This document shows positions 1,369 through 52,384 of a DNA stretch of 54,083 nucleotides, piece by piece. Positions within the stretch are counted from its first letter, which is position 1. The number at the start of each line of letters is the position of its first letter. The stretch spans positions 1-54,083 of IMG/VR virus record IMGVR_UViG_2534682338_000012; one strand, 5' to 3'. Both the position numbers and the translations under genes were made by a program. The DNA is from a virus (Duplodnaviria > Heunggongvirae > Uroviricota > Caudoviricetes). The notes beneath the pieces are model-generated. The model was given only the letters and a program-made list of their open reading frames with translations. It was not told where the DNA came from and ran no database searches.

Positions 1369-1444
1369 GCCGATATAGCTCAGTTGGTAGAGCAGCGCAT
1401 TCGTAATGCGAAGGTCGTAGGTTCGACTCCTATTATCGGCACCA
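1369..1444 (+). tRNA. thrW: tRNA-Thr (anticodon CGU)
   Basis: 76-nt cloverleaf-compatible sequence GCCGATATAGCTCAGTTGGTAGAGCAGCGCATTCGTAATGCG...TTCGACTCC...GGCACCA with CGT anticodon and 3' CCA; coordinates approximate to 1-2 nt. Confidence 0.9.
1399..1444. repeat. attL core (3' 46 bp of tRNA-Thr)
   Basis: Exact repeat of 41810-41855 by eye (ATTCGTAATGCGAAGGTCGTAGGTTCGACTCCTATTATCGGCACCA). Confidence 0.7.
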
Positions 1445-1458
1445 TTTAAATCAATAAG

Positions 1459-11439: not shown

Positions 11440-11459
11440 TCAAGAGGAGAAACGAAGTA

Positions 11460-12267
11460 TGAATAATCTGATGGTCATTGATGGTATTGAAGTTCGTCGT
11501 GATGCTTATGGGCGTTACAGCCTGAACGATCTGCACAGGGCAGCCGGGGGAGAACAAAAAACCGCCCGAAATACTGGCTCTCCAATAAGCAAACCTGTGA
11601 ATTGATTGAACAACTTTTCACCGAGGGTGGAATTCCGCCTCTGGAACAAAATCAACCAGTTAGCGTCATTAATGGCGGAAATAACCAGGGGACGTATGTC
11701 TGCAAAGAACTGGTGTATGCCTATGCAATGTGGATCAGCCCGTCATTCCATCTGAAGGTGATCCGTACTTTCGATATGGTAACCAGCGCACCGGAAAAAT
11801 TATCCGGGCAGGCTGCTGACAAGATGCAGGCTGGAGTGATTCTGCTGGACTTTATGCGCAGGGAGTTAAACCTGTCTAACTCTTCAGTGCTTGGGGCCTG
11901 TCAGAAACTCCAGGAGGCTGTTGGCTTACCGAATCTGGCACCGCGCTATGCCATTGATGCTCCTGCTGACGCGCCTGATGGCTCAAGTCGCCCGACACTG
12001 TCGCTGAGTGCACTGCTGAAACAGTATGGTATCCGCCTTACGGCTAATCAGGCATATCACCAGATGGCGAAGCTGGGGATCGTCGAACAGCGCGAACGAT
12101 ACAGCCGTACAGCGATTAACAACATCAAAAAATTCTGGTCGCTGACGGCGAAAGGCTGCATGTTCGGCAAGAACATCACCAGTCCTGCAAATCCGCGCGA
12201 GACGCAGCCGCACTTCTTCGAATCCCGATTCCCTGAGCTGTTAAAGCTGCTCGATACCGTTCATTGA
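11460..12267 (+). pseudogene. KilA-N domain protein interrupted by frameshift in an A6 run
   Basis: ATG with AAGAGGAGA RBS encodes MNNLMVIDGIEVRRDAYGRYSLNDLHRAAGGEQK then stops; the +1 frame continues ...NRPKYWLSNKQTCELIEQLFTEGG into the 221-aa ORF 11602-12267. Confidence 0.5.
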
Positions 12268-16431: not shown

Positions 16432-17295
16432 ATGGAAAGAGGTGTGGTATTTAGTGCATGCGAATTACTTAAAACCGAGGATGGAAAAGGCATCCGTACA
16501 GGTAAATGGATTAGTCAATTAGAAATAAACTATCTATGTCTTTATTGGGATAAACTAGTTTCACCCACTAATAATATTATACATACAGCATTAAATAACG
16601 AGGATGAATTAGAAAAATGTGGATTGCTAACCAGACCTGTATATAGACATCATGGTTGTTTTGATGGCCAATATATGGCTGATTTTTATGCTGAAACTCA
16701 TGCCAAAACAATAGATATACTTAGGCATGCGGATTCTTCTGTCGATTGGCGCATGCATTTTTTAAGTGACCAAATAAACTTGGTGCCTGAATTATCTAGA
16801 ACCTCAGAAGTGATACGTTTTGAGCTAGCAAATTTATTACCCGTTCCCACAGAAGATGTGCACCTACATGATATTCTTGATTTCAAGGAAAGAAGAAAAC
16901 CTGAATTAATCGCTTTACATGAATATCTTGATGAGCTTTACTTGGAAATAAAACGTTCTGGTGATATCAATCTTCAGAAAGCAAAAGCTCTTTCTAATCT
17001 TAAACAAGCAATAAAGGATATTGAACGCTTAAATTGTGAAGTGTGGAAAAGTCCAATAAAATTTAGCATCTCTACTTCCTTTGAGTTCGATTTTTCACAA
17101 ATATTTACTCTGGCGGGAACTGTTTTATCTATGTCAGTAGATTATCCTTATAATGTTATTGGAGGGGTAAGTAGTTTTGCTTATTTTTTGGGAGGATGCA
17201 TAAAAATAAAGCCACAATTTCAACAAGTGTTATCATTAGGTAATGATAAATTAGTTTACATAAGCAAAGGAAAATCGGAGGGTATTATTTCCTGA
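16432..17295 (+). CDS. hypothetical moron protein (287 aa) between lysis and packaging modules
   Basis: AGGAG RBS, AT-rich by eye, no recognisable domain. Confidence 0.6.
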   Translation: MERGVVFSACELLKTEDGKGIRTGKWISQLEINYLCLYWDKLVSPTNNIIHTALNNEDELEKCGLLTRPVYRHHGCFDGQYMADFYAETHAKTIDILRHADSSVDWRMHFLSDQINLVPELSRTSEVIRFELANLLPVPTEDVHLHDILDFKERRKPELIALHEYLDELYLEIKRSGDINLQKAKALSNLKQAIKDIERLNCEVWKSPIKFSISTSFEFDFSQIFTLAGTVLSMSVDYPYNVIGGVSSFAYFLGGCIKIKPQFQQVLSLGNDKLVYISKGKSEGIIS

Positions 17296-29696: not shown

Positions 29697-31025
29697 ATGA
29701 CGTGGAAAGACAGACTTCAGGACGCGTCATTTCGCGGTGTGCCGTTTAAGGTTGAAGAAGAAAGTGCGGGAACCGGTCGTCGTGTGGAAACGCACGAATA
29801 CCCGAACCGCGACAAACCCTATACCGAAGACCTGGGGAAAATCACTTTCCGCCCGTCCATCACAGCTTATGTGGTGGGAGATGACTGCTTTGACCAGCGC
29901 GATCGCCTGATTGACGCGCTGAATAAACCCGGTCCCGGCACGCTTGTCCATCCGACTTACGGTGAGCTGAAAGTCTGTGTTGACGGGGAAGTTCGGGTCA
30001 GCACATCGAAGAGTGAAGGGCGTATTGTCCGCTTTGACCTGAAGTTTGTCGAAGCGGGAGAACTCTCTTACCCCACTTCAGGTGCGGCGACGGCGCAGAC
30101 GCTGATGTCATCCTGTTCTGCACTGGATGACTGCATCAGTGACAGCTTCAGTGGTTTCAGTATCGATGGCGTGGCAGATTTTGTGCAGAACGACGTCGTC
30201 GGTAATGCCAGCACAATGCTTGGGTATGTTTCTGATGCGATGAAAGTGGTGGATTCTGCCGTATCGGATGCCGCCAGGCTGTTGCAGGGGGATATCTCGG
30301 TACTTCTGCCGCCACCATCGTCAGGCAAAAATTTCGTTGAGCAGGTGCAGAAAATGTGGCGTACCGGGAAACGCCTTTATGGTAACGCCAGCGACCTGGT
30401 CACCATGATCAAAACGCTTTCCGGTGTCAGCCTCGGCAGCGATCTGCAACCGCGCGGCGTCTGGAAAACGGACAGTAAAACTACCGCCACGGCGACGCAG
30501 CAGCGTAACGTGGTTGCCAGCACCCTTCGTACGACCGCAATCAGCGAAGCGGCGTATGCCGTCACACGATTGCCTGCGCCCACAACTTCCGCGGTGATGC
30601 AGAATGCCACAGTAGGGCAGTCAACAACACCCGCGCAGAGCACCGGCTGGCCTTCTGTCACGCATCCGGCACTGAACAATGCACCGGCGGTGAAAAACAC
30701 GGTTGACCTGCCAACGTGGGAAGAACTGACCGACATTCGCGACACACTGAATACGGCAATTGATAAGGAGTTGTCCCGTACAACCAGTGATGCGCTGTTT
30801 CTGGCGCTGCGCCGGGTGAAAGCAGATCTGAATGCGGATATCAACACGCGCCTTGAACAGTCTGCACGGATCATTCAGCGCACGCCGGATGAGGTTTTAC
30901 CCGCGCTGGTGCTGGCGGCGACCTGGTTTGATAACGCGGCGCGTGACGCGGACATTATCCGGCGTAATGCCATTACGCATCCCGGCTTTGTGCCGGTGAT
31001 CCCTCTGAAGGTGCCAGTGCAATGA
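29697..31025 (+). CDS. DNA circularisation protein (Mu gpN-like)
   Basis: MTWKDRLQDASFRGVPFKVEEE... N-terminus typical of Mu N family; start chosen at ATG with GGAG RBS. Confidence 0.75.
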   Translation: MTWKDRLQDASFRGVPFKVEEESAGTGRRVETHEYPNRDKPYTEDLGKITFRPSITAYVVGDDCFDQRDRLIDALNKPGPGTLVHPTYGELKVCVDGEVRVSTSKSEGRIVRFDLKFVEAGELSYPTSGAATAQTLMSSCSALDDCISDSFSGFSIDGVADFVQNDVVGNASTMLGYVSDAMKVVDSAVSDAARLLQGDISVLLPPPSSGKNFVEQVQKMWRTGKRLYGNASDLVTMIKTLSGVSLGSDLQPRGVWKTDSKTTATATQQRNVVASTLRTTAISEAAYAVTRLPAPTTSAVMQNATVGQSTTPAQSTGWPSVTHPALNNAPAVKNTVDLPTWEELTDIRDTLNTAIDKELSRTTSDALFLALRRVKADLNADINTRLEQSARIIQRTPDEVLPALVLAATWFDNAARDADIIRRNAITHPGFVPVIPLKVPVQ

Positions 31026-32101
31026 ACGACAATGTCACGCTACGGGTAAATGGCCGGGAGTGGAATGGCTGGACATCGGTGCGCATCGGTGCCGGTATTG
31101 AACGGCTGGCGCGGGATTTCAGTGTGGAGATCACTCGCCAATGGCCGGGAGATGAGGGTATCACCACGCTTCAGCCGCGCATTAAAAACGGTTCAAAAGT
31201 GGAAGTGCTGATTGGTGATGAGCTGGTGATCACCGGCTGGGTGGAGGCGACTCCCGTTCGTTACGATGCCCGTTCGGTCAGCACCGGTATTGCCGGACGT
31301 AGTCTGACGGCTGACCTGATTGACTGTGCAGCCGAACCGACACAGTTTAACGGACGCTCGCTGGTGCAGATTGCGCAGGCGCTTGCTGCGCCTTTCGGCA
31401 TTGAGGTTGTGAACAGCGGTGCGCCGTCGGGTGTTATTCCTGATGTTCAGCCTGATCACGGTGAAACGGTGATTGAGGTAATCAACAAAATACTCGGTCA
31501 GCAGCAGGCGCTGGCTTACGACGACCCGCACGGCAGGCTGGTGATTGGCGGTATTGGCTCAACGCGGGCACATACCGCGCTGGTACTTGGGGAAAACATC
31601 CTTTCCTGTGATACGGAGAAGAGTATCCGGGAGCGGTTTTCTGTTTACCAGGTGGCGGGGCAGCGTGCCGGAAACGACGATGATTTCGGTGAGGCCACCA
31701 CCACCGCGCTGCGGGCCCGCACAGAGGACGCATTTATTGCCCGTTACCGTCCGATGTATATCAGGCAGACAGGGCAGGCCACGGGGGCAGGCTGTATTGC
31801 GCGTGCTGACTTTGAAGCCCGAAAACGGGCGGCGCGGACGGATGAAACCACCTATGTGGTGCAGGGCTGGCGACAGGGTAACGGTACGCTGTGGCAGCCC
31901 AACCAGCGGGTGATTGTCTTCGATCCGGTCTGTGGTTTCGACAATACCGAACTGCTTGTCTCGGAAGTCACGTTTACTCAGGACCAGAACGGCACCCTGA
32001 CGGAAATCCGTGTCGGCCCGCCTGATGCTTATCTGCCTGAACCCGAAGCCCCCGGCGCGCGGAAAAAGAAAAAAGCCAGAGTACAGGAGGACCCGTTCTG
32101 A
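31022..32101 (+). CDS. baseplate hub protein (Mu gpP-like)
   Basis: 359 aa, canonical position after N. Confidence 0.7.
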   Translation: MNDNVTLRVNGREWNGWTSVRIGAGIERLARDFSVEITRQWPGDEGITTLQPRIKNGSKVEVLIGDELVITGWVEATPVRYDARSVSTGIAGRSLTADLIDCAAEPTQFNGRSLVQIAQALAAPFGIEVVNSGAPSGVIPDVQPDHGETVIEVINKILGQQQALAYDDPHGRLVIGGIGSTRAHTALVLGENILSCDTEKSIRERFSVYQVAGQRAGNDDDFGEATTTALRARTEDAFIARYRPMYIRQTGQATGAGCIARADFEARKRAARTDETTYVVQGWRQGNGTLWQPNQRVIVFDPVCGFDNTELLVSEVTFTQDQNGTLTEIRVGPPDAYLPEPEAPGARKKKKARVQEDPF

Positions 32102-32649
32102 TGAGGACGATTGAAGCCATGCAGCGACAACTTCTCGGCCTGATTGGGCGGGCAGTGGTGAAAAGCATCAGTGCCGCCACGAAATGTCAGACCGTGGATG
32201 TGTCCCTGATTGCCGGTGAACCCAAAGCCGGGGTTGAACATCTTGAACCCTACGGTTTTACCGCAAGGGCAAACAGCGGTGCGGAAGCGGTGGTGTTGTT
32301 TCCGGATGGCGACCGTTCTCATGCGGTGGTTGTTACGGTGTCGGACCGGCGCTACCGCCTGAAAGGGCTGCAAACGGGTGAGGTGGCTGTCTATGACGAT
32401 CAGGGGCAGTCTGTGACGCTGACCCGGGAGGGGATCGTGGTGGACGGTGCAGGGAAAACGATCACGTTTCGCAATGCACCTGAAGCACGTTTTGAAATGG
32501 ATCTGGAAGTGACCGGACAGGTGAAAGACCTGTGCGACTCCGGCGGCACCACCATGTCAGCGATGCGGCTTGCCTATAACGGGCATCGTCACAGAGAGAA
32601 CGGTCAGGGCAGTAACACCGACAAACCTGATAAAGCGATGGAGGCATGA
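32101..32649 (+). CDS. baseplate assembly protein V / spike
   Basis: 182 aa, canonical position. Confidence 0.7.
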   Translation: MRTIEAMQRQLLGLIGRAVVKSISAATKCQTVDVSLIAGEPKAGVEHLEPYGFTARANSGAEAVVLFPDGDRSHAVVVTVSDRRYRLKGLQTGEVAVYDDQGQSVTLTREGIVVDGAGKTITFRNAPEARFEMDLEVTGQVKDLCDSGGTTMSAMRLAYNGHRHRENGQGSNTDKPDKAMEA

Positions 32650-33073
32650 TGGAACTGTGGCTGACGGTGAACGGTAAACGCACCTGCGCCAGCGCACCGC
32701 TGGATCCGCTGACCCGCGCCGTGGTGATTTCCCTGTTCACCTGGCGGCGGGCGGAGCCTGATGACAATGCCGACGTCCCGATGGGATGGTGGGGGATACC
32801 TGGCCTGCGGTACAGAATGACCGTTACGGCTCCCGACTGTGGTTGCTTCAGCGCAGCAAACTGACCAATCAGCTGGTGCAGACGGTAAGGGGATATATCC
32901 GCGAATGCCTGCAATGGATGACTGATGACGGCGTGGTGTCCCGTATTGATCTGGATATCCGCCGCACCGGGATTAATGAGCTGGGTAACAGTATCACCCT
33001 CTGGCGTCGTGATGGACCAGTAATGATTTCTTTTGATGATCTGTGGAGTGCGATAACGCATGGCGGACAGTGA
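32646..33073 (+). pseudogene. baseplate protein (Mu gp46-like) interrupted by frameshift in G-run
   Basis: ORFs 32646-32864 and 32786-33073 overlap in different frames; junction at GGTGGGGGAT where one extra G would give continuous ...DVPMGWWGDTWPAVQNDRY... Confidence 0.5.
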
Positions 33074-34118
33074 ATTTCAGCGCCCGACGCTGGCAGAAAA
33101 TATCAGTATGCTCCGTAACGATTTATTCGCCAGGCTGGACGTCAGCGACACGCTCCGGCGCATGGATGAAGACGTGCGGGCAAAGGTGTATGCGGCGGCG
33201 CTGCATACGGTCTACGGTTACATCGATTATCTGGCAATGAATATGCTGCCTGACCTGTGCGATGAGTCCTGGCTGGCGCGACATGCTGCGATGAAACGGT
33301 GTCCGCGCAAGGGGGCCACGGTTGCCAGCGGGTATATGCGCTGGGAAGGTGTCAGCGATGGCCTGAAGGTGACTGCCGGGAGTGTTATTCAGCGCGATGA
33401 CCTGGTGCAGTACACGACAACTGACGATGCAATCAGCTCCGGTGGTGTCCTGCGCGTGCCGATCGCCTGCTCAAGTGCAGGTGCGGTCGGTAACGCTGAC
33501 GACGGTACGGCATTAATCCTGGTCACGCCGGTGAATGGTCTGCCGTCTTCCGGTGTGGCTGACACCCTGACAGGCGGATTTGATACTGAAGAGCTGGAAA
33601 CGTGGCGCGCCCGCGTCATTGAGCGGTATTACTGGACGCCGCAGGGCGGGGCTGACGGGGACTATGTCGTCTGGGCTAAAGAAGTGCCTGGCATTACCCG
33701 CGCATGGACATACCGACACTGGATGGGAACGGGGACTGTCGGTGTGATGATTGCCAGCAGTGACCTGATTAATCCCATTCCGGAAGAATCAACGGAAACG
33801 GCGGCAAGACAACATATCGGGCCACTGGCCCCGGTGGCAGGCTCTGATTTGTATGTGTTCAGGCCGGTGGCACATACGGTGGATTTTCATATCCGTGTGA
33901 CGCCGGACACACCGGAAATACGGGCTGCCATCACCGCGGAGTTGCGTTCGTTCCTGCTGCGTGATGGTTATCCGCAGGGAGAACTGAAGGTGTCACGTAT
34001 CAGTGAAGCGATTTCCGGTGCGAACGGGGAATACAGCCATCAGTTGCTTGCACCGGCGGACAATATCACCATTGCGAAAAATGAACTGGCGGTTCTGGGG
34101 GCGATTTCATGGACGTGA
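33060..34118 (+). CDS. baseplate J-like protein
   Basis: 352 aa, canonical position. Confidence 0.75.
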
Positions 34119-34693
34119 CAAACGATGATTACATCCGTCTGTTGTCAGCACTGTTGCCGCCCGGTCCGGCGTGGTCAGCCAGCGATCCGGCGATTGCCGG
34201 TGCGGCACCGTCATTAACCCGTGTTCATCAGCGTGCGGATGCCCTGATGCAGGAGCTGGATCCGCGCACCACCACCGAACTGATAAACCGCTGGGAGCGT
34301 CTGTGCGGCCTGCCGGATGAATGTATTCCGGCAGGGACGCAGACCCTTCGCCAGCGTCAGCAACGGCTGGATGCGAAGGTTAACCTGGCGGGCGGCATCA
34401 ATGAGGATTTTTACCTTGCACAGCTTGCTGCCCTGGGCAGACCAGACGCCACCATCACGCGATACGACAAAAGCACGTTCACCTGCTCATCTGCCTGTAT
34501 TGACGCGGTGAATGCGCCGGAATGGCGGTATTACTGGCAGGTCAACATGCCAGCCGCCACCAACACCACCTGGATGACATGTGGCGATCCCTGTGATTCC
34601 GCGCTGCGCTTCTGGGGGGACACCGTTGTCGAGTGTGTTCTTAACAAACTCTGCCCGTCGCATACCTATGTGATTTTTAAATATCCGGAGTAA
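34109..34693 (+). CDS. tail protein (DUF2313/YmfQ-like)
   Basis: 194 aa, precedes tail fibre as in e14/Mu-type tails. Confidence 0.65.
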
Positions 34694-34696
34694 TCC

Positions 34697-35344
34697 ATGC
34701 ATCGTATAGACACGAAAACCGCGCAGAAGGATAAGTTCGGCGCGGGTAAGAACGGTTTTACCCGTGGTAACCCCCAGACCGGCACGCCTGCCACCGATCT
34801 GGATGATGACTACTTTGACATGTTGCAGGAGGAGCTTTGCAGCGTTGTGGAGGCATCCGGTGCCAGCCTGGAGAAGGGGCGGCATGACCAGCTGCTTACC
34901 GCGCTTCGTGCGCTGCTGTTAAGCCGCAAGAATCCGTTTGGCGATATCAAATCGGATGGCACGGTGAAAACAGCTCTCGAAAACCTTGGTTTGGGAGAAG
35001 CGGCAAAGAGGAATGTGGGGACAGGAGAAAATCAGGTACCGGATATGAACAGCTTTGGTAACTCATTGACCGCCAATGGATACCAGAAATTACCTGGGGG
35101 GATGATTATTCAATGGGGGAGTTTTTCTGTCTCACCAACCGGAGGAAGTGTTGGAACAGTTGATATAACATTACCTGTAGCTTTCCCTGCTGCTTGTCGT
35201 TCGGTAAACGCTCTTATTTCAACTAATGATCCTTCTGCCCGTTCTGTGGGCTTTGATATTGGAAGTACCAACAGAACTAAAATCAGATTTACTTACACTT
35301 CTGCTACAACAAATTCAATTTACTGGATGGCTGTGGGGTATTAA
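34697..35344 (+). CDS. tail fibre protein (constant N-terminus fused to variable segment A)
   Basis: [22 protein letters not shown]... conserved fibre N-terminus; crossover site lies inside the gene. Confidence 0.75.
34974..34999. repeat. left inversion crossover site (gix/pix-like)
   Basis: CTCTCGAAAACCTTGGTTTGGGAGAA; inverted copy at ~36832-36857. Confidence 0.55.
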
Positions 35345-36352: not shown

Positions 36353-36856
36353 TATGCAGCCCTCACAATATAGTTAAAAGCGACATTTCGTGGGCGTGTT
36401 TCATTCGCACCTGCAGGTTTAGTCGTTGCCGCAACAACACTACCCTCTGTAATAGCCGGGTTGGGAATTGGGTAATTATCGAAGTCAATGGCTGGAGACA
36501 GGGGCGTGATTTGTTTTAAAATCGTGGTGCCTGTAAAACTTCCCAGAGTCTGGTCGTTAGTTCGTGAAGTCCAGACTCCCCAATAGTGGTTATGACTGAC
36601 AATCGCACCGTCCTGAAGCGTTAATAATCCCCTTCCGTTATCCACTCCACGTCCGTCATCCCAGCCACGAATAAACTCACCGCGTAAATCAGGTAATTTA
36701 TTTGTCGGATAAGCCTTTGCCAGTTCCGGGTATTCTTCAGCAGAAAAAGCTGCTCCGTTGCATTTCAGCCAGCCTGTTGGCGGAGTGGCTGAAGGCCACG
36801 GAACAGGCACACCAACGGGTAATGCTGAGCCTTCTCCCAAACCAACGTTTATGAAA
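36352..36856 (-). CDS. alternative tail fibre C-terminal segment (variant B, currently unfused)
   Basis: Minus-strand ORF ending at crossover site; would fuse to fibre N-terminus after inversion. Confidence 0.6.
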
Positions 36857-36911: not shown

Positions 36912-37466
36912 ATGCTTATTGGCTATGTACGTGTGTCAACAAATGACCAGAACACAGATCTACAACGTAATGCGCTGAACTGTGCAGGATGCGAGCTGAT
37001 TTTTGAAGACAAGATAAGCGGTACAAAGTCCGAAAGGCCGGGACTGAAAAAACTGCTCAGGACATTATCGGCAGGTGATACGCTGGTGGTCTGGAAACTG
37101 GACCGACTGGGGCGCAGTATGCGGCATCTTGTCGTGCTGGTGGAGGAGTTGCGCGAACGAGGCATCAACTTTCGTAGTCTGACGGATTCAATTGATACCA
37201 GTACCCCAATGGGGCGCTTTTTCTTTCATGTGATGGGTGCCCTGGCTGAAATGGAGCGTGAACTGATTGTTGAAAGAACAAAAGCTGGACTGGAAGCTGC
37301 TCGCGCACAGGGACGAATTGGTGGACGTCGTCCCAAACTTGCACCAGAACAATGGGCGCAGGCCGGGCGATTAATTGCATCAGGCGTTCCTCGCCAGAAG
37401 GTGGCGATCATCTATGATGTTGGTATATCGACACTGTATAAGAAGTTTCCGGTCGGAGATAAATGA
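36912..37466 (+). CDS. pin: serine DNA invertase (Pin/Gin/Hin family)
   Basis: MLIGYVRVSTNDQNTDLQ... catalytic Ser in YVRVST, C-terminal HTH; immediately right of invertible segment. Confidence 0.9.
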   Translation: MLIGYVRVSTNDQNTDLQRNALNCAGCELIFEDKISGTKSERPGLKKLLRTLSAGDTLVVWKLDRLGRSMRHLVVLVEELRERGINFRSLTDSIDTSTPMGRFFFHVMGALAEMERELIVERTKAGLEAARAQGRIGGRRPKLAPEQWAQAGRLIASGVPRQKVAIIYDVGISTLYKKFPVGDK

Positions 37467-37572
37467 AACCGTAGCACGTCGTATGCAAGAAGATCGTGCT
37501 GCGGTTTATGCTTATCACTTAAAGACTCAAAAATTAGGTGAGTAACGGACCGGGGACATAGCTCCTTTTTTC

Positions 37573-38394
<822 letters not shown>

Positions 38395-38926: not shown

Positions 38927-40363
38927 ATGAATGCTAAAATTTCATGTCCAATTGATGGGTATATCATAACAGATTTCATAGGAGACGGAGGGAACGGAGA
39001 TGTGTATCTTGTAACTTCAAGTTCTGGCGAGGAAGCATTCGCTTTAAAAATACTAAGAAATGTACAAGAATCAACTTATAATAGATTCAAGGTAGAAGTT
39101 AATTTCTTGAAAGATAATAAAGTAGATGGGGTAATGCCTTTGCTTGATTTTTACCTTCCAGATAATGCAAAAAAAGAACAAGCTTGGTATCTTATGCCAT
39201 TGGCTGAAAGCTTTAAAGAAAGTGTAAAGCAAAAAGATCCATTATCAATCATCTCTGAATTCATTCATCTCACTCAAACCATTATAGAACTCCATGACCA
39301 AAACATATCTCACCGGGATATAAAGCCAGATAATCTTCTATATTTGAATGGCAGGATATTTTTAGCGGACTTTGGATTGGTAAAATATCCTGAAAGAATC
39401 GAATTAACACCCGATATGCGAGACGTTGGCGCAAAATTCACAATGGCCCCAGAAATGAGACGGATAGCAAATCGTGCTGATGGGCTCCCGGCAGACATTT
39501 ACTCTCTGGCAAAATCAGTATGGATGTCTCTGACTAAAGACTATCTTGGTTTTGATGGTCAGTACAGCACAAAATCTAATATCGGATTATCAAACTACAT
39601 AAAAGAACTATATCTACCGCCCTTAGATGACCTATTAGTGCGCGCAACAGATAACGATCCGTATCAGCGACCAACTGCTGCGGAGTTTAAGACAGAACTT
39701 GAAAATTGGATAAAAATTAATAATGATTTCATCCAGCGTAATTTAACTGAATGGTTCGAAATCCAAAACCTACTATTCCCATACAGCACACCGAATAGTG
39801 TAGAGTGGACAAATAATGATGACATAATAAACATACTCAATTTAATAGCTGGAAGGGAGTCTCTAAATCACATGTTTTATCCTTCCGGTGGGGGAAGCGA
39901 TTTGATTTATGTCGAACCAGCCTCAGAAAAAGGATTTATCGCGCTTATAGTCTGTGAACGATGCGCTGAAATTTTAAAGCCCAAAAAACTTTCATTTGAA
40001 TCATTTGGTCATGATCCCGAATGGAATTATTTTCGTCTTGAATGTGAAGTAATCGAACCAATGAAAATTTCGGGTCCCGTTACTAGTTCAACGATGGATG
40101 AATACATGGTTGAAATTACGCCTGGAAATTACATACCTCCAGATTGCTGGGAAATAAATGAGTATCAAGGTAAACCTCTACCTGAAACCGCTAGAATTGT
40201 CAGCAGGTATATAAAAGGTAGTTTTGTATTTTTCTGCAAGTCATCAACTTATAACAGAATAAGCCAGACGTATAATGCTTGGCAGAATGTGGGGGAAAAT
40301 GAATTCAGAAAGCTAATCGCAAAATTTGCTCAGTATGCTTCTGCCCGAAGAACCATTAAATAA
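38927..40363 (+). CDS. Hanks-type Ser/Thr protein kinase with C-terminal domain of unknown function
   Basis: Gly loop IGDGGNGDVY, catalytic Lys (AFALK), HRDIKPDNLL catalytic loop, DFG (LADFGL), APE (MAPEMRR). Confidence 0.8.
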   Translation: MNAKISCPIDGYIITDFIGDGGNGDVYLVTSSSGEEAFALKILRNVQESTYNRFKVEVNFLKDNKVDGVMPLLDFYLPDNAKKEQAWYLMPLAESFKESVKQKDPLSIISEFIHLTQTIIELHDQNISHRDIKPDNLLYLNGRIFLADFGLVKYPERIELTPDMRDVGAKFTMAPEMRRIANRADGLPADIYSLAKSVWMSLTKDYLGFDGQYSTKSNIGLSNYIKELYLPPLDDLLVRATDNDPYQRPTAAEFKTELENWIKINNDFIQRNLTEWFEIQNLLFPYSTPNSVEWTNNDDIINILNLIAGRESLNHMFYPSGGGSDLIYVEPASEKGFIALIVCERCAEILKPKKLSFESFGHDPEWNYFRLECEVIEPMKISGPVTSSTMDEYMVEITPGNYIPPDCWEINEYQGKPLPETARIVSRYIKGSFVFFCKSSTYNRISQTYNAWQNVGENEFRKLIAKFAQYASARRTIK

Positions 40364-40719: not shown

Positions 40720-41337
40720 ATGAAAAGTAGCCTTGAACAAGCTTTCCAAGAAGCAGCACACGCAGCAGATCGTGCAGTCAGCGGTGCGATGCTGAAGTAT
40801 TCTAATGGGTTGGTCACGGATGAAGACGACATAACAGGGGTACTGATCGGCCGGTTGGATGCTGTGTTTTCCGAAGAAATTGGTGGTGTAACATGGTCTT
40901 CATCCATTCTAAGGCACCGTAAGGGGGTAGCAGCAGAAGAAAAGAAGGTCGGTGCTGACATGCTGCTCCATGTCTCAATCTCAACACCAGAGCTCACCTA
41001 TTCAAAGGGGGTTTTGATTCAGTCAAAGAGAGTTGATGAAGGTATTGCAATGACAGCACAAGGTCACAAAGAATTGCTGGGACAGTGCGACAAAATGCTA
41101 AATATTACCCCGGCTTCGTTTGTTTTTACCTATACGAAGTCAGGGATGCGCTGCGCTTCCGCAACGAAGATTGTTGGAACAAGTAGCCGAATACTTAACG
41201 ATTCGTGCAACCTGACCTCTTATCGGTTCTTCCTGGAACTGTTCCGATGCACAATTGGAGATCGCAACATTACATCGGCCAAGTTTGATGATCTTCGGAT
41301 ACCTCAAGGCATTGCCATCAAGGGAACACTGGAGTAA
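40720..41337 (+). CDS. hypothetical protein (205 aa)
   Basis: ATG with GAGTGAGG RBS downstream of kinase; no recognisable domain. Confidence 0.5.
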   Translation: MKSSLEQAFQEAAHAADRAVSGAMLKYSNGLVTDEDDITGVLIGRLDAVFSEEIGGVTWSSSILRHRKGVAAEEKKVGADMLLHVSISTPELTYSKGVLIQSKRVDEGIAMTAQGHKELLGQCDKMLNITPASFVFTYTKSGMRCASATKIVGTSSRILNDSCNLTSYRFFLELFRCTIGDRNITSAKFDDLRIPQGIAIKGTLE

Positions 41338-41809: not shown

Positions 41810-41855
41810 ATTCGTAATGCGAAGGTCGTAGGTTCGACTCCTATTATCGGCACCA
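41810..41855. repeat. attR of prophage / attL of P4-like element (partial tRNA-Thr 3' end)
   Basis: 46-bp copy of tRNA 3' end lacking the 5' half. Confidence 0.7.
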
Positions 41856-42019
41856 TCACCTAGTTTTCCCAAGTCAACCCACATCAACAAAATCATTTAA
41901 AAACATATATATTACGTTATTTTCATACGTTTGAGGTCAACCCTTGTCTCTTGAAATCAACACGCGGTTGGGGGCACAATCAGGGGCATGTTCTGTTCGG
42001 TCTAGGAAATGTGCCCCCA

Positions 42020-43210
42020 ATGATGCTGAATGCCCGCAAGGTTGAAGCTGCGAAAGGAAAAGAGAAGAGCTACAAGCTGTTTGATGGAGGTGGCCTATAC
42101 CTTCAGGTCGAACCTAATGGCTCGCGTTACTGGCGTATGAAATACCGTTTTGCTGGTAAAGAGAAACGATTGTCCTTTGGTGTTTATCCAACAGTCACAC
42201 TTGCTGATGCCAGACAAAAACGAGAAGACGCGAAGAAACTACTCGCAGCAGGTGAAGATCCCGGCGAAGTCAAAAAAGCCAAAAAGCAGGCTTTAAATGC
42301 AGCGATTGAGACACTTAACCCATTCAGAGAAGTGGCGTTAGAGTGGCACAAAATGAAATCACCCAAATGGTCTGAGGGCTATGCTTCCGACATCATTGAG
42401 GCATTCGAGAAAGACATTTTCCCGCATATTGGGCACAGACCTATAGCTGATATTCAGCCCCTTGAACTGCTTGAAGTTCTGAGGTTGATAGAAGCTCGAG
42501 GCGCTATGGAGAAAGCGAAGAAAGTCCGTCAGCGATGCGGTGAAGTTTTTCGCTATGCCATCGTAACGGGTAGGGCAATCTACAATCCGGCACCGGATCT
42601 TGCCAGTGCGATGCAAGGACATGAAGCAGTCCACTATCCATTCCTCAAAGCCAACGAACTACCGGAGTTCTTTAATGCCCTTAATTCTTATTCAGGAAGT
42701 CCAATTGTATTGTTGGGGGCGCATTTACTTATCCTGACAGGTCTACGAACTGGAGAACTACGAGCAGGTGAGTGGCGAGAGGTGGATTTTGATAATGCGG
42801 TGTGGGAGATCCCAAAAGAACGTATGAAAATGCGTAGGAGCCATATTGTCCCGTTGTCAAAACAAGCATTATCCCATCTCAAAAGTTTGAAAGAACTAAC
42901 TGGGAACTACCCGCTGATGTTCCCTGGACGCAACGATCCTAGCAAATTTATGAGTGAAGCAAGCATTAATCAGGTGTTTAAACGTATTGGATATGCAGGG
43001 CGTGTTACGGGGCATGGTTTCAGGCATACGATGAGTACAATCCTACATGAGAAAGGATTTAACAGCGCTTGGATTGAAACCCAGCTTGCTCATTCGGACA
43101 AAAACTCTATTCGTGGAATTTATAACCATGCCCAATATCTCGAAGGGAGAAGAGAAATGATGCAATGGTATGCTAATTATTTATCTGAGCTAATTGGTAC
43201 TCATAAATGA
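42020..43210 (+). CDS. P4-type tyrosine integrase
   Basis: N-terminal LNARKVEAAKGKEKSYKLFDGGGLYLQV (DUF4102-like arm-binding domain), C-terminal HGFRHT...Y catalytic region; track start is TTG, ATG chosen. Confidence 0.85.
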   Translation: MMLNARKVEAAKGKEKSYKLFDGGGLYLQVEPNGSRYWRMKYRFAGKEKRLSFGVYPTVTLADARQKREDAKKLLAAGEDPGEVKKAKKQALNAAIETLNPFREVALEWHKMKSPKWSEGYASDIIEAFEKDIFPHIGHRPIADIQPLELLEVLRLIEARGAMEKAKKVRQRCGEVFRYAIVTGRAIYNPAPDLASAMQGHEAVHYPFLKANELPEFFNALNSYSGSPIVLLGAHLLILTGLRTGELRAGEWREVDFDNAVWEIPKERMKMRRSHIVPLSKQALSHLKSLKELTGNYPLMFPGRNDPSKFMSEASINQVFKRIGYAGRVTGHGFRHTMSTILHEKGFNSAWIETQLAHSDKNSIRGIYNHAQYLEGRREMMQWYANYLSELIGTHK

Positions 43211-44031
43211 ATATTTTAAAAATTAATAATACTGATTCTCTGCTCAGAGATTACTACCAGTTGGATGAAGCTTCAGAAAAAATTGGTTGTAGTGAAAAGG
43301 ATATACTCTGGTTTGCCAGAGAACGAGATGTAGAGCTATGCATGGAATTCCATGATGATGAGTATGATGTTTCATGTGGTTTGAAGATTGATGGTCAAAT
43401 GGATGAGTTCTTATCTAATCTGAAATATTTACCACGAGATAGAAATGGCAATATTATGTTGTCAGACTTAAGTTCTATAAGAATCCCTGATGAAGATAAT
43501 TTAATTGATAAAAATGGTTTTATTCGATGTTTCATATCCGGTTTATGGGCTGTTGATTATGAATATAAAGATCTGTTAGTTAAGCATGAGGGGCAACCGG
43601 ATTCTTGGCCTATTCATTTTCTACTGGCGGGTACGCCTAATATAAATTGTAAGGTAATTCTTTATGTAAATTATGATGAAAAAGAAAATTATTATCTTTT
43701 TGAGGTTTTGTGGATTACAAAGGTACAGATTCAAAAATTCATTGATATAGTCTTATGCGAACAAAAGCGGATAAAAAACGCCAATAAATATAAATCACAA
43801 TCTGAGGCGCAAAAACAAAAACATGCTGTTCCTCGAGCTGAAATACTCATGGCTATTATTTCGCTCTATCATCGTGATATGAGGCTAAGAAGAGAGAGTC
43901 CAGCAGCGATAGCTGATTATCTTTTTCAACATGCCAGTGAGTTCTGGCCTAAGACCGGAGAACCGCCTTTGAGCTATGATACTGTTGTTAGTTTGCTACG
44001 TAGTTGCATGAAAAACATTAAGTTTAACTAA
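43207..44031 (+). CDS. hypothetical protein (274 aa), AT-rich
   Basis: Start overlaps integrase stop (ATGA), no recognisable domain. Confidence 0.5.
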   Translation: MNILKINNTDSLLRDYYQLDEASEKIGCSEKDILWFARERDVELCMEFHDDEYDVSCGLKIDGQMDEFLSNLKYLPRDRNGNIMLSDLSSIRIPDEDNLIDKNGFIRCFISGLWAVDYEYKDLLVKHEGQPDSWPIHFLLAGTPNINCKVILYVNYDEKENYYLFEVLWITKVQIQKFIDIVLCEQKRIKNANKYKSQSEAQKQKHAVPRAEILMAIISLYHRDMRLRRESPAAIADYLFQHASEFWPKTGEPPLSYDTVVSLLRSCMKNIKFN

Positions 44032-44156
44032 ATATTAACAATTATTGTGGCTAATGATTTTGGATTTTTTTCATTAGTCACATTTTTCTCATTTATAACC
44101 TATGTTTTAATTTTCCGTGTTGAAGCCAATAGACTTAGATAAACGGAGAATGATGA

Positions 44157-44447
44157 ATGTTATCTAAACATGATAATACTACTTTGCAACGACCTTCAAT
44201 GGATTCTCTGATCGATATGAAGTTTATTACTTCCGATTGTTTATTAAGTGATAAATGGATTTATCGATTGATTTCTCTGAATCGCTTTCCAAAACCTATA
44301 AAAATAGGTCGGATGTCACGATGGCGCGCTGCTGATTATTATAAGTGGCGAGATGGGTTTGAAGAAAACTCAGGTCAACATTTTGAGGGAATGAGAAATA
44401 AGGCAAGAGCAATTAATAAAGGGAATAGATTATCACCTACTCCCTAA
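44157..44447 (+). CDS. AlpA-family phage regulatory protein
   Basis: C-terminal region resembles AlpA HTH (RLISLNRFPKPIKIGRMSRWRAADYYKW); true start may be internal (~44217). Confidence 0.55.
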   Translation: MLSKHDNTTLQRPSMDSLIDMKFITSDCLLSDKWIYRLISLNRFPKPIKIGRMSRWRAADYYKWRDGFEENSGQHFEGMRNKARAINKGNRLSPTP

Positions 44448-44479
44448 GCCTTAATTGATAGTTAGTAATATTTAACTGA

Positions 44480-44653
44480 TTAGCCTTTAGGGTCAATCCC
44501 GCGTGATTGGAGTTCTTTGCGTAAAATTCTTTTAATCCAAGTTGCCAACGCGCTATCTCCATCTTTGCGCATTTCGTTTTCGAGTTGCAACCTAAAATCG
44601 TCGGTAAGACGCATTTGGAATGGTGGAGAACGTTTCTCTTGTGGTGTTGACAT
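44480..44653 (-). CDS. small ribbon-helix-helix-like protein (57 aa), not in ORF track
   Basis: Minus-strand ORF MSTPQEKRSPPFQMRLTDDFRLQLENEMRKDGDSALATWIKRILRKELQ...; beta-strand/helix/helix pattern; two copies of CATGGTAATTACC palindrome at and upstream of start. Confidence 0.4.
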   Translation of the reverse strand: MSTPQEKRSPPFQMRLTDDFRLQLENEMRKDGDSALATWIKRILRKELQSRGIDPKG

Positions 44654-44784
44654 GGTAATTACCCTAGAATATGATGACTACATGGTAATTACCATTGTAA
44701 GTATAGTTCGCTTGTAAAAGCAATGCCCGATTGTGCGGGAACACAAATCGGGCATTTAACCAACCGTTATAAGAGGTAACGAAG

Positions 44785-44961
44785 ATGGCTAAACAGAAGT
44801 GTACCTGGTTATTTGCGGCGATCAACCGCAGTCAACGCAATGCCCGTCCTGTGATGTTAAGGATCACCGCAGATAACGAGCGGTCAGCGCGGCGCAGACT
44901 TGCCCCGGACTATGTACTGAGCTTTGCCGGGCGCATTCCCTGCGGAGGTGAACATGCGTAA
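44785..44961 (+). CDS. small protein (58 aa), possibly Icd-like
   Basis: AAGAGG RBS; MAKQKCTWLFAAINRSQRNARPVMLRITADNERSARRRL...; translationally coupled to next gene; family assignment from memory, low certainty. Confidence 0.35.
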   Translation: MAKQKCTWLFAAINRSQRNARPVMLRITADNERSARRRLAPDYVLSFAGRIPCGGEHA

Positions 44962-45313
44962 TTATCCGCACCCCGGCGAACGCTGGCAGCATGAACGTGG
45001 CTGGACGGTCACGATTATCCGATTAATAGAAGCCTCGCCCTCTGTGGCGCTGGTTAATCCTGAATTCAGCTGTGAAGTGCTGATACGTCATGACAGCGAC
45101 AACCAGCTTTCTTCCTGCCCTCTGGCATGGTTTGAACAGCGGTATACGCGCCTGTTTGATGTACCGCTCTTTAAGCCTGCACCAGCTCCTGCAGGCGGTA
45201 GTGGTTCCGGCCCGCTGACACTGCATCCGTCTGTGCTATTTATCCGCTGGCGGGAGCGTAGCATATGGCGTTCTGCTGAGCCTGACGACGGTCACTATTC
45301 AAAGTTTCTCTGA
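44954..45313 (+). CDS. hypothetical protein
   Basis: Start MRNYPHPGERW after GGAGGTG, overlapping upstream stop. Confidence 0.5.
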   Translation: MRNYPHPGERWQHERGWTVTIIRLIEASPSVALVNPEFSCEVLIRHDSDNQLSSCPLAWFEQRYTRLFDVPLFKPAPAPAGGSGSGPLTLHPSVLFIRWRERSIWRSAEPDDGHYSKFL

Positions 45314-45344
45314 CAAAATACCGCTGAAAACGGAGTAATCCACG

Positions 45345-45629
45345 ATGAATATTTCAAACGGGCACAACGGTGCTCAGGGCCACACTTTGCCTGAAAAACA
45401 CAATACCGGTGCTTTTGCCTATGGGTTGTCAGAGGACAGTTTCGGAAAGCTGACCCGCGCAAGAAATGCCTGCGACATGCTCCAGCTTCTCTTTTCTGAA
45501 TACCCGTCTCAGGCCGGAGCACTGGACGCTGGCTGTGCGCATGGTGTCGCCGCGCTGATGGAGTACCTGCTGGCAGATTTGACGGATATTGCACACAGTT
45601 GCGCACTGATTGAAGGAGGTGCCAGATGA
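45345..45629 (+). CDS. hypothetical protein
   Basis: 94-aa ORF in operon upstream of primase. Confidence 0.45.
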   Translation: MNISNGHNGAQGHTLPEKHNTGAFAYGLSEDSFGKLTRARNACDMLQLLFSEYPSQAGALDAGCAHGVAALMEYLLADLTDIAHSCALIEGGAR

Positions 45630-46009
45630 ACCAGCCGCAGGTTTCCATTTTCCCGGCAGAAATGACCACCGCGCTTTACCGGCGGGCTATTGCTTCAGCA
45701 TGGCGGCAGAAAATGCTGAACGAAACTGGCAGTGATCAGTATGGTCCGCACAGCCTGACGGTGGAGCGTATTGAAATGGCCATTGCGCTGCATATCGAGT
45801 GCGTACTGATTAACGAGTACGGCGAAGTGCAGGGCGCCGCTACCGCGCTGGCACTGCTGACTGACATGCTGGAGCCGTCACTGCTGACCGCGCCGCCGGT
45901 ACTGACCGCGCGCGGCTGTGAAGTGATGGCGGAGATGTACCGCACGCTTCCGGCGGCCTTTGATGACTTCTGCAGTACCGGTGTGACGTTGTATGAGGGG
46001 GAAGTATGA
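45626..46009 (+). CDS. hypothetical protein
   Basis: 127-aa ORF, stop-start overlap with neighbours. Confidence 0.45.
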   Translation: MNQPQVSIFPAEMTTALYRRAIASAWRQKMLNETGSDQYGPHSLTVERIEMAIALHIECVLINEYGEVQGAATALALLTDMLEPSLLTAPPVLTARGCEVMAEMYRTLPAAFDDFCSTGVTLYEGEV

Positions 46010-48678: not shown

Positions 48679-48699
48679 GGCTTTGCGTGAGTCTTATTT

Positions 48700-48900
48700 A
48701 TTAAGGGTAACAGGTGAAACAGGTGGAACAACCGTATTTTACAGGGCTGAATCTGTTCCACCTTCTGAAATAGTGAGGTGGAACAGATGTAACGCCAGCC
48801 AATCCGCTGTTCCACCTTGTTACCCGCGATGTTCCACCGGTGCAGTGTATATAAATGCTTTATAAAACAAATGGGTAACACATGTTTCACCTGTTACACC
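48700..48900. repeat. ori/crr-like iteron cluster
   Basis: At least five copies of GGTGGAACA/TGTTCCACC in both orientations plus inverted GTAACAGGTGAAAC...GTTTCACCTGTTAC. Confidence 0.5.
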
Positions 48901-49078
48901 GCATCAGGGACATAAAGCAGACTGAAACAGAGGGCATTTTTATCTGGCTGGCTTTCATAGCCACGTCTGAATAACCGCAAGCGCCCGTTGTACCAGCCAC
49001 CACACACTGAGCACCGATAGTGTGCTTGTGTCAGCCACGACACAATTGACGTAACGAACCAACCCGACAGGAGAAGTC

Positions 49079-49822
49079 ATGAACAACACCGCAGTGAATA
49101 ACAACCTTTCCACTTTTCCGGCTGTAACGCAGCGGGCACTGGAAACCATGAACACAGCCAGAAACGCATGGCTTGAAGCACGTCGTCAGCAGAAAGCGGC
49201 AGCGGATAATATTGCGACAATCCGCCAGCGTCGCGCTGAAATGGAAGCCACGACGAACACACTGAATGAGGAGTGGCGCACGCTGTTTCGTGAAAGTCAG
49301 GGCGTGGTCTCAAAGGAAATGAAAAAACTGCGCACGGAAATTGCGCTGGGACGAGAAACTCTTGAGGATTTTGATGAGCTGCTGGAGGCTCAGGAAAGCG
49401 AAAATGCACTTTTGCCGCAGAAAGCTGCGGAATTAGCCGGAAAGTATATCCACGCGCATAACATCCTTGTGGATATTCGCGCAAAACAAATCTGGGAAGA
49501 TTTTATGCAGTCGCATGGAAAAGCGCTTATTCAGACGCTGAGCCTGCTTAAATCCACAATGGGCCGGGAAGCCAGTGCCGTTGTGGGTGTGGTGAATTCA
49601 GTTAATGACCCGGACACAGTGCTGAAAGACTTTATTCATAAACATATCACCAGACCGGCTCTGGCTAACGATGCGATGCCTGAGCAGGACCCGGTGTTTA
49701 AACTGGCGGGAGTTGCCCCGGATTATGCGGCGCGTCTGGATTTCAGTAATCAACTCTCTCCGGCAGCTATGCATAAAATTAAGGTTCGTCAGGAACTTGC
49801 TGAGAAGGAGAAAGCAGTATGA
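49079..49822 (+). CDS. possible Sid-like capsid size determination protein
   Basis: 247 aa, alpha-helical/coiled-coil character, immediately upstream of Psu; size close to P4 Sid. Confidence 0.35.
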   Translation: MNNTAVNNNLSTFPAVTQRALETMNTARNAWLEARRQQKAAADNIATIRQRRAEMEATTNTLNEEWRTLFRESQGVVSKEMKKLRTEIALGRETLEDFDELLEAQESENALLPQKAAELAGKYIHAHNILVDIRAKQIWEDFMQSHGKALIQTLSLLKSTMGREASAVVGVVNSVNDPDTVLKDFIHKHITRPALANDAMPEQDPVFKLAGVAPDYAARLDFSNQLSPAAMHKIKVRQELAEKEKAV

Positions 49823-50370: not shown

Positions 50371-50375
50371 TATTA

Positions 50376-52137: not shown

Positions 52138-52384
52138 TGTTAAGTTTTTTTTCGAAAGATGAGGATTTGACAAAATCCCCTCCTGTTGTAGGGGCTAAAA
52201 TTCTTAATTTATTTGACGAAACAAAAAAGAAAAAATTAGTATTTTCGATTTAGCAAAAGAATTAAAGAAAAACAACTCTCTAGGAGTGCGTGCAATTTAT
52301 TTTGGAATGGTCTTTCTTTATACTCTTGATCTTATCGATTTCGATGAGCCATATGTGATAAATAAAAATGTTAAGAATAAATAA
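52137..52384 (+). pseudogene. small middle ORF (~80 aa if contiguous) interrupted by frameshift in A-rich tract
   Basis: ATG overlaps upstream stop (TGATG); frame 0 gives 38 aa then stop; adjacent frame continues ...ISIFDLAKELKKNNSLGVRAIYFGMVFLYTLDLIDFDEPYVINKNVKNK to overlap the next gene. Confidence 0.35.

What the first reader, a model, noticed from the sequence alone, without database searches (positions are those of the whole stretch)
32646..33073. Baseplate gp46-like gene disrupted at a G5 run
Two overlapping ORFs join into one typical baseplate protein if one G is added at GGTGGGGGAT. If real, the prophage would be tail-defective (cryptic) while its accessory genes persist.
Basis: seen in the sequence. 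Interest (0 to 1): 0.35.

Follow-up and report, generated by a model that had tools for sequence, protein, structure and literature searches.

The report
Probable sequencing-error frameshift in prophage gp46
A tail-baseplate gene of an otherwise complete SfV-like prophage is split by one missing G, but it is one of five such one-base losses in single-base runs in this draft E. coli assembly, so it is most likely a sequencing miscall and not a sign of a crippled phage.

Summary
ORFs 32646-32864 and 32786-33073 are the two halves of a Mu gp46-family baseplate wedge gene. The frame breaks at a G5 run (32791-32795). Adding one G gives a 141-aa protein identical to WP_000424737.1.

Plaque-forming phage SfIV, phage SfV, 118 of 120 IMG/VR loci and all but at most two of 1097 complete E. 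coli records have G6 there.

The interpretation, a real pseudogene and therefore a cryptic, tail-less prophage, is doubtful. The window is from the draft assembly of E. coli H120 (GCA_000190855.1). It holds four more one-base contractions of single-base runs, each private to this assembly:
- A7 to A6 in a KilA-N gene
- T7 to T6 and T8 to T7 in the PD-T4-3 defence gene
- A7 to A6 in a small defence ORF of the neighbouring P4-like satellite

Each truncates an ORF that is intact in all complete-genome records examined.

Nothing else in the 40-kb prophage is damaged, and both att repeats are present. The 1.5 kb around the G run match another prophage exactly.

G5 copies in other assemblies are scattered single cases, often in error-ridden assemblies.

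Best reading: a homopolymer undercall (about 0.7). Rival: a recent real frameshift that abolishes tail assembly (about 0.25). Either way it is ordinary.

The parts
32649..32795 (+). gp46 codons 1-49 (N-terminal third), in the frame of ORF 32646-32864. As the sequence reads, it runs on out of frame to a stop at 32862-32864.
   Evidence: 100% identical to residues 1-49 of WP_000424737.1; Pfam GP46 profile positions 1-33.
32791..32795 (+). G5 run, the frameshift site. It is G6 in SfIV, SfV and nearly all relatives, and it encodes the W-G-D of the conserved GWWGD motif.
32796..33073 (+). gp46 codons 50-141 (C-terminal two thirds), in the -1 frame. This is the frame of ORF 32786-33073.
   Evidence: (Pfam GP46 profile positions 34-100).
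31022..32101 (+). Mu gp44/P-like baseplate hub gene, intact.
32101..32649 (+). Mu gp45-like spike gene, intact (100% identical to the TW14425 protein).
33060..34118 (+). Baseplate J/gp47 wedge gene, intact. Its start overlaps the normal end of gp46 by 14 nt.
34109..34693 (+). Mu gp48-like wedge gene, intact.
11556..11561 (+). A6 run in the KilA-N gene. It is one base longer in every one of 360 complete-genome records with this allele, and A7 was read directly in strain 4/1-1. It splits the gene (11459-11560 and 11557-12264 in different frames).
37566..37571 (-). T6 run (A6 on the coding strand) near the 3' end of the PD-T4-3 / LEM-3-like GIY-YIG gene. It is T7 in 12 of 12 loci that have the site.
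37588..37594 (-). T7 run in the same gene. It is T8 in 8 of 8 loci that have the site. No record among 612 shares both contractions.
52223..52228 (+). A6 run in the small ORF between the SMEK and DUF2326 genes of the P4-like satellite. It is A7 in VG12A2, and the other two matching records also carry one extra base. It truncates an 82-aa ORF at about residue 40.
1399..1445 (+). attL: 47 bp covering the 3' part of tRNA-Thr (thrW, 1369-1444) and one base beyond.
41810..41856 (+). attR: exact 47-bp repeat of the thrW 3' end. It closes the 40.4-kb prophage, and the P4-like satellite follows.

Best explanation
The gene is the Mu gp46 / T4 gp25-type baseplate wedge protein (BW1) of a complete SfV/SfII-like myovirus prophage integrated at thrW in E. 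coli H120. In Mu, six copies sit between the tube initiator and the first sheath ring and dock that ring by beta-sheet augmentation.

The break in its reading frame is most probably not in the organism. It is a one-base undercall of a G6 homopolymer in the draft assembly GCA_000190855.1. It is one of at least five such undercalls in this 54-kb window.

On this reading the real gene is intact (G6) and encodes WP_000424737.1, and the prophage is probably tail-proficient.

What is shown: the G5 in the record, the G6 in relatives, the four other private contractions, and the intactness of everything else. What is inferred: that the cause is technical and not mutational.
For: 1. The window holds five private -1 contractions, all in the longest class of runs (normal lengths 6-8), and each truncates a conserved ORF:
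- 11556 in KilA-N (0 of 360 records share it)
- 32791 in gp46 (at most 2 of 1097 records)
- 37566 and 37588 in PD-T4-3 (0 of 612 share both)
- 52223 in the satellite ORF (0 of 3)

2. There is no other damage. All head, tail, lysis and replication genes are full length and 92-100% identical to those of the TW14425 prophage, and both 47-bp att repeats are present.

3. There is no decay after the break. The repaired protein is identical to a protein seen on at least 1000 contigs. The 1525 bp around the site equal the muskdeer13-4 prophage except for the G. Likewise, 3782 bp around the 52223 contraction equal VG12A2 except for the A.

4. G5 elsewhere has no phylogenetic depth. Apart from two near-identical assemblies that pair with each other (L136/L138), each G5 carrier is nearest to a G6 sequence, two of them with 0 SNPs over 3.7 kb. 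Many carriers have several other broken genes. Scholz et al. 2016 (PMC4746626) treat sporadic run-length outliers without a clade pattern as possible sequencing errors.

5. Complete genomes show G5 in at most 2 of 1097 records. The one inspected is an error-ridden 43.7-kb contig.

6. The source is a draft assembly. From my own memory, not verified with these tools, genomes of that project and era were 454/Newbler assemblies, which are prone to exactly this error.
Against: No reads could be inspected, so the G5 cannot be shown to be an error.

Most long runs in the window agree with relatives. These include T8 at 52145, A8 at 53000 and G7 at 53450. Any error process therefore hit only about one run in five of length 7 or more.

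Real homopolymer polymorphism exists in this prophage family. A5/A6 at 5561 is shared by three complete genomes.

Some G5 carriers elsewhere sit in otherwise clean contigs (L132, L135, L137, L141, L144, L145, L153). Real G5 alleles may therefore occur.

All five contractions lie in mobile-element genes that the host can lose without cost, as real decay would also predict.
Confidence: 0.7

Rival explanations
1. The deletion is a real, recent slippage mutation (G6 to G5) in the H120 prophage, possibly in a mismatch-repair-deficient background that also produced the other four contractions.

Translation would stop after 49 native and 22 foreign residues. No BW1 would be made, baseplate wedges and sheath initiation would fail, and induction would give heads without tails. 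The prophage would then be trapped while its cargo (a PD-T4-6-like kinase, the Pin-invertible fibre segment, PD-T4-3 if still active) stays with the host.

Loss of the 14-nt gp46/gp47 overlap coupling could also lower gp47 synthesis.
For: The G5 is what the record says.

gp46 is a structural component present in six copies that docks the first sheath ring (PMC11915804). It is the counterpart of T4 gp25, P2 gpW and T6SS TssE (PMC6300606).

Homopolymer runs are natural mutation hot spots. G5 occurs in several otherwise clean contigs of other strains.

All five contractions lie in prophage or satellite genes that are dispensable to the host.
Against: Five private frameshifts sit beside no nonsense mutation, deletion or IS insertion, and many proteins are 100% identical to relatives.

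Two contractions lie 22 nt apart in one gene.

Each contracted state is absent or nearly absent among hundreds of complete genomes.

No clade inherits G5.
Confidence: 0.25
2. The G run is a functional switch. Either it is a programmed -1 frameshift site that makes full-length gp46 from two frames, or it is a phase-variable tract that reversibly turns tail production off and on.
For: G5 has arisen, or been called, independently at least ten times in different phage backgrounds.

A -1 slip of the P-site tRNA-Gly on G-GGG before the rare AUA codon would restore the exact wild-type sequence WWGDT (the codons were read from the sequence, the slip itself is inference).
Against: The two-frame arrangement is not conserved. 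At least 1095 of 1097 E. coli records, 118 of 120 IMG/VR loci and the isolated phages SfIV and SfV have one ORF with G6.

There is no X XXY YYZ slippery heptamer.

A tract of 5-6 bases is far shorter than known contingency tracts.

Other runs in the same tail module vary at the same 1-3% in IMG/VR.
Confidence: 0.04

Closest known systems
Phage Mu gp46 (baseplate wedge protein 1; PDB 9ki1; Pfam PF07409); functional counterparts T4 gp25, P2 gpW and T6SS TssE
   Same: The repaired protein matches PF07409 end to end. It aligns to the Mu gp46 chain of 9ki1 at E 6.9e-15, including the GWWGD motif. It sits in the Mu order gp44-gp45-gp46-gp47-gp48.
   Different: As written in the window, the ORF is split after codon 49 by a one-base contraction. 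The alignment to Mu gp46 is distant and covers residues 19-123.
orf18 of Shigella phage SfV (U82619), its counterpart in SfIV (KC814930), and WP_000424737.1 of E. coli prophages
   Same: The nucleotide sequence is 97.7-99.8% identical over 521 bases. The repaired protein is identical to WP_000424737.1 and differs by 1 aa from SfV and SfIV. The neighbouring genes and the thrW integration site are the same.
   Different: The window has G5 where these have G6. This prophage carries no gtr serotype-conversion genes. In their place are a Pin-invertible fibre segment, PD-T4-3 and a PD-T4-6-like kinase.
Spurious frameshifts from homopolymer miscalls in draft or long-read assemblies
   Same: There are several single-base contractions confined to the longest runs. 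Each is private to the assembly, sits in an otherwise identical sequence, and breaks a conserved ORF. The same pattern is seen in the CT01 43.7-kb contig, which also has G5.
   Different: Read-level proof is missing, and the sequencing platform of this assembly could not be confirmed with the tools.

Membership tests
Pfam PF07409 GP46 / Mu gp46 baseplate wedge protein 1 | Sequence match to the family profile above the curated cut-off | tested here: met
   the repaired protein scores 111.5 bits (cut-off 28.6) over profile positions 1-100 of 101. The two halves score 29.8 and 72.2 bits.
Pfam PF07409 GP46 / Mu gp46 baseplate wedge protein 1 | Homology to the structurally defined Mu gp46, including the GWWGD motif | tested here: met
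   9ki1_A 'Baseplate protein gp46', E 6.9e-15, residues 19-123 aligned. The role is described in PMC11915804.
Pfam PF07409 GP46 / Mu gp46 baseplate wedge protein 1 | Position in the Mu-type baseplate gene order gp44-gp45-gp46-gp47-gp48 | tested here: met
   (PF21683/PF22255, PF06890, PF04865 and PF10076 on the neighbours).
Pfam PF07409 GP46 / Mu gp46 baseplate wedge protein 1 | One uninterrupted reading frame of about 141 codons | tested here: not met
   the frame is broken at the G5 run 32791-32795. It is intact in relatives with G6.
Programmed -1 ribosomal frameshift site | Two-frame arrangement conserved among relatives | tested here: not met
   G6 and a single ORF in at least 1095 of 1097 E. 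coli records, in 118 of 120 IMG/VR loci, and in SfIV and SfV.
Programmed -1 ribosomal frameshift site | Slippery heptamer X XXY YYZ at the frame junction | tested here: not met
   the codons read TGG TGG GGG ATA, with no canonical heptamer. A downstream stimulatory structure was not examined.
Phase-variable homopolymeric tract (contingency locus) | Both on and off lengths common in the population, and more variable than other tracts | tested here: not met
   (at most 2 of 1097 records are not G6); 2 of 120 variants at this run, against 1 of 44, 2 of 64 and 2 of 107 at other runs of the tail module.
Phase-variable homopolymeric tract (contingency locus) | Mixture of tract lengths within one culture | not testable with these tools
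   This needs the reads.
Homopolymer miscall in an assembly | Several assembly-private single-base run-length changes in otherwise identical sequence | tested here: met
   Five contractions. The flanks are identical over 1525 bp and 3782 bp.
Homopolymer miscall in an assembly | Read pile-up or independent resequencing contradicts the consensus | not testable with these tools
   No reads were available. No second assembly of the same prophage was found (one search gave only this assembly plus two prophages 97% identical to it).

The most novel reading that the evidence does not exclude
The G6 tract that encodes the conserved W-G-D of gp46 may be a recurrent slippage hot spot. It would repeatedly, and perhaps reversibly, switch off tail assembly in SfV-like prophages of E. 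coli and Shigella.

This would trap defence-carrying or serotype-converting prophages in their hosts. At least ten apparently independent G5 occurrences exist in public assemblies, some in otherwise clean contigs. Low-level -1 slippage at G-GGG-AUA could give leaky rescue.
Probability: 0.05. Interest if true: 0.35.

Novelty: not a real feature. Interest (0 to 1): 0.07.

Why it matters
It matters mainly as a caution. A single frameshift at a homopolymer in a draft genome should not be read as prophage domestication without read support. Here the wider window supplies the control, namely four more private contractions.

If the deletion were real, it would be one more example of the well-known decay of prophage structural genes. 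In that case the thrW prophage of E. coli H120 would be predicted to release tail-less heads while keeping its anti-phage cargo.

Tried and rejected
- **Programmed frameshift or recoding.** Rejected because relatives have one ORF with G6.
- **Phase variation.** Rejected because the run is no more variable than other runs of the tail module and G5 is very rare in complete genomes.
- **Long-term prophage decay.** Rejected because every other gene is full length and both att repeats are intact.
- **KilA-N split.** I first read this as a divergent mosaic segment, because the alignment to TW14425 is gapped. Translation and a matching allele showed a clean A7-to-A6 contraction instead.
- **The +1 difference at 5561** (A6 here, A5 in three relatives). 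It is not an error signature of the window. The window's ORF is intact, and the relatives are the ones annotated as frameshifted.
- **A second sequencing of the same prophage.** The exact-protein look-up returned only this assembly and two short contigs 97% identical to it.
- **Literature on the assembly or strain.** Searches for GCA_000190855 and for E. coli H120 found nothing, so the sequencing platform remains unverified.
- **Structure prediction.** I ran none, because Pfam and the solved Mu gp46 already settle the identity.

Full report
**1. The observation**

The window has two overlapping same-strand ORFs, 32646-32864 (72 aa) and 32786-33073 (95 aa). A GGGGG run lies at 32791-32795. The second frame is -1 relative to the first, so one added G fuses them.

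Pfam PF07409 (GP46) is divided exactly at the break. ORF1 covers profile positions 1-33 and ORF2 covers 34-100. The repaired 141-aa protein covers 1-100 in one stretch (E 2.1e-32).

The repaired protein is identical to WP_000424737.1 of E. coli muskdeer13-4 and TW14425. It differs by 1 aa from orf18 of phages SfV and SfIV. It is on record on at least 1000 contigs.

**2. What the gene is**

The neighbouring genes are:
- Mu gp44/P-like hub, 31022-32101
- gp45 spike, 32101-32649
- baseplate J/gp47, 33060-34118
- gp48, 34109-34693

The repaired protein aligns to Mu gp46 in the cryo-EM structure 9ki1 (E 6.9e-15). The alignment includes a GWWGD motif whose W-G-D codons (TGG GGG GAT) make up the G run.

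In Mu, gp46 is baseplate wedge protein 1. Six copies sit between the tube initiator and the wedge, and they bind the first sheath ring by beta-sheet augmentation (PMC11915804). It is the counterpart of T4 gp25, P2 gpW and T6SS TssE (PMC6300606). From my own recollection of the Mu genetics literature, not checked here, null mutants of the Mu baseplate genes give tail-less heads. A true null should therefore block tail formation.

**3. The element and its source**

- The window runs proA (1-1254), then tRNA-Thr thrW (1369-1444), then a 40.4-kb prophage.
- The prophage is bounded by exact 47-bp repeats of the thrW 3' end (1399-1445 and 41810-41856). A P4-like satellite follows.
- The prophage is of the SfV/SfII/SfIV type, with an HK97-like head and a Mu-like tail. 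It is 97-98.6% identical to these phages and to many E. coli prophages.
- SfIV, which has G6, was induced, forms plaques and has a contractile tail (PMC3851460).
- Positions 22786-43073 are 100% identical to NCBI GCA_000190855.1 scaffold GL871844.1. The 95-aa ORF is deposited as EGB41496.1 of Escherichia coli H120.

**4. How unusual G5 is**

- Among complete E. coli genomes, 1097 records hold this 71-base stretch, and at most two match without the gap.
- The one listed is a 43.7-kb circular contig of strain CT01. Its annotation shows several other frameshifted or partial phage genes, and it has further homopolymer differences.
- In IMG/VR, 118 of 120 loci have G6, one has G5 and one has G7.
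- Other runs of the tail module vary at a similar rate there: 1 of 44, 2 of 64 and 2 of 107. This run is therefore not specially unstable.

**5. The control inside the window**

Comparison with the closest relatives of each part of the window showed four more one-base contractions of homopolymer runs. All are private to this assembly and all break an ORF.

| Position | Change | Gene affected | Shared elsewhere |
|---|---|---|---|
| 11556 | A7 to A6 | KilA-N gene, split in two | 0 of 360 records that carry the same allele |
| 37566 | T7 to T6 | 3' end of the LEM-3-like GIY-YIG gene, which is PD-T4-3 (E 1.3e-128) | relatives T7 in 12 of 12 loci |
| 37588 | T8 to T7 | same gene, 22 nt away | relatives T8 in 8 of 8 loci; 0 of 612 records share both contractions |
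| 52223 | A7 to A6 | 82-aa ORF between the SMEK and DUF2326 genes of the satellite | 0 of 3 records |

The sequence around 52223 otherwise differs from VG12A2 by 3 SNPs in 12.3 kb.

The window has 73 runs of 6 or more bases. Roughly one in five of the runs normally 7 or longer is contracted. No run shows a comparable private expansion.

**6. Nothing else is broken**

Protein-by-protein comparison with the TW14425 prophage shows full-length matches for every other conserved gene. These cover terminase, portal, protease, capsid, connectors, sheath, tube, tape measure, DNA circularisation protein, hub, spike, gp47, gp48, lysis and replication genes. Many are 100% identical.

The 1525 bp around the G run equal the muskdeer13-4 prophage apart from the missing G. 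The 3782 bp around 52223 equal VG12A2 apart from the missing A. So there is no sign of relaxed selection after the supposed inactivation.

**7. G5 in other assemblies**

The truncated 71-aa product is on record in 97 blocks of the collection. In a 3.7-kb alignment of the baseplate module, almost every G5 carrier is nearest to a G6 sequence and not to another G5 carrier. The one exception is a pair of near-identical assemblies, L136 and L138. Two carriers differ from their nearest G6 sequence by no SNP at all:
- L135 against phage SfIV
- L133 against L007 and L048

Many carriers have several other split genes (L133, L134, L136, L138-L140, L146-L152). A few are otherwise clean (L132, L135, L137, L141, L144, L145, L153).

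Scholz et al. 2016 (PMC4746626) flag sporadic run-length outliers without a clade pattern as possibly due to sequencing error. The few clean carriers leave room for some real G5 alleles.

**8. Conclusion**

The most economical reading is that G5 is a homopolymer undercall in the H120 draft assembly (about 0.7). The real prophage would then have an intact gp46.

I recall that draft genomes of that project and period were 454/Newbler assemblies. I could not confirm this with the tools, so it is offered as a lead only.

The main rival (about 0.25) is a real, recent slippage mutation, perhaps in a mutator background. It would give a 71-72-aa stub and no wedge protein 1, and hence heads without tails. 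It might also reduce gp47 translation, because the 14-nt gp46/gp47 overlap would no longer be reached by ribosomes.

A functional frameshift or phase switch is very unlikely (about 0.04). I note only that a -1 P-site slip on G-GGG before the rare AUA codon would recreate the wild-type sequence, so a real G5 allele could be slightly leaky. This is inference, not tested.

**9. Verdict**

The gene identification is right. The biological interpretation is probably wrong, and it is ordinary even if right.

Noticed in passing
window 11459-12267 (run at 11556-11561): The KilA-N gene is split by an A7-to-A6 contraction. All 360 complete-genome records with this allele carry the extra base.
   Followed up: yes
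window 37530-38349, minus strand (runs at 37566 and 37588): The prophage cargo gene next to the Pin invertase is PD-T4-3, a LEM-3-like GIY-YIG anti-phage defence gene (PADLOC E 1.3e-128). In the window its last ~20 codons are lost through two T-run contractions 22 nt apart.
   Followed up: yes
window 38927-40363: A 478-aa Ser/Thr protein kinase gene lies inside the prophage, between PD-T4-3 and attR. This is the position where Shigella Sf phages carry their gtr genes. Its best PADLOC matches are mad6, PD-T4-6 and Stk2-type defence kinases (E 1e-25 to 1e-16). An unassigned 205-aa ORF follows at 40720-41337.
   Followed up: partly
window 41857-54083: A P4-like satellite sits in tandem with the prophage at thrW. 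It has an integrase (41951-43210), a TOPRIM/DUF927 primase (46006-48678), two psu-like genes and an ogr/delta-like gene. Its cargo is a SMEK gene, a small ORF and a DUF2326 gene (ABC-three-component-type, PDC-M68B) at 51178-54083. The small middle ORF is truncated by an A7-to-A6 contraction at 52223.
   Followed up: partly
window 34981-35000 and 36831-36850: 20-nt inverted repeats (95% complementary) flank an 1830-nt segment. The segment holds alternative tail-fibre C-termini and tail-fibre assembly genes in opposite orientations, next to a Pin/Gin-type invertase (36912-37463). This looks like a Mu G-segment-like host-range switch.
   Followed up: partly
window 5561 (ORF 5438-5809, minus strand): The run is A6 here and gives an intact 123-aa ORF. 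Three complete genomes (TW14425, STEC005, D8) have A5 and are annotated 'frameshifted'. This is an apparently real, inherited homopolymer polymorphism in the early region of this prophage family.
   Followed up: partly
L125 (E. coli CT01 'plasmid unnamed3', NZ_CP081794.1): A 43.7-kb circular record annotated as a plasmid is a whole SfV-like phage genome that includes a dusA fragment. It has G5 in gp46 and several other frameshifted or partial phage genes. It is probably an excised prophage assembled from error-prone reads.
   Followed up: partly
L135 (GCA_002950235.1, CP026792.1): The prophage of this gtr- and IS-carrying genome is identical to phage SfIV over 3672 bases of the baseplate module, except for the same G6-to-G5 contraction.
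   Followed up: no
window 14233-15018 and 16432-17295: Two moron-like ORFs are present. A 261-aa ORF with no family match lies downstream of the Q-like antiterminator. A 287-aa DUF6236 protein lies between the lysis genes and the HNH/terminase genes.
   Followed up: no
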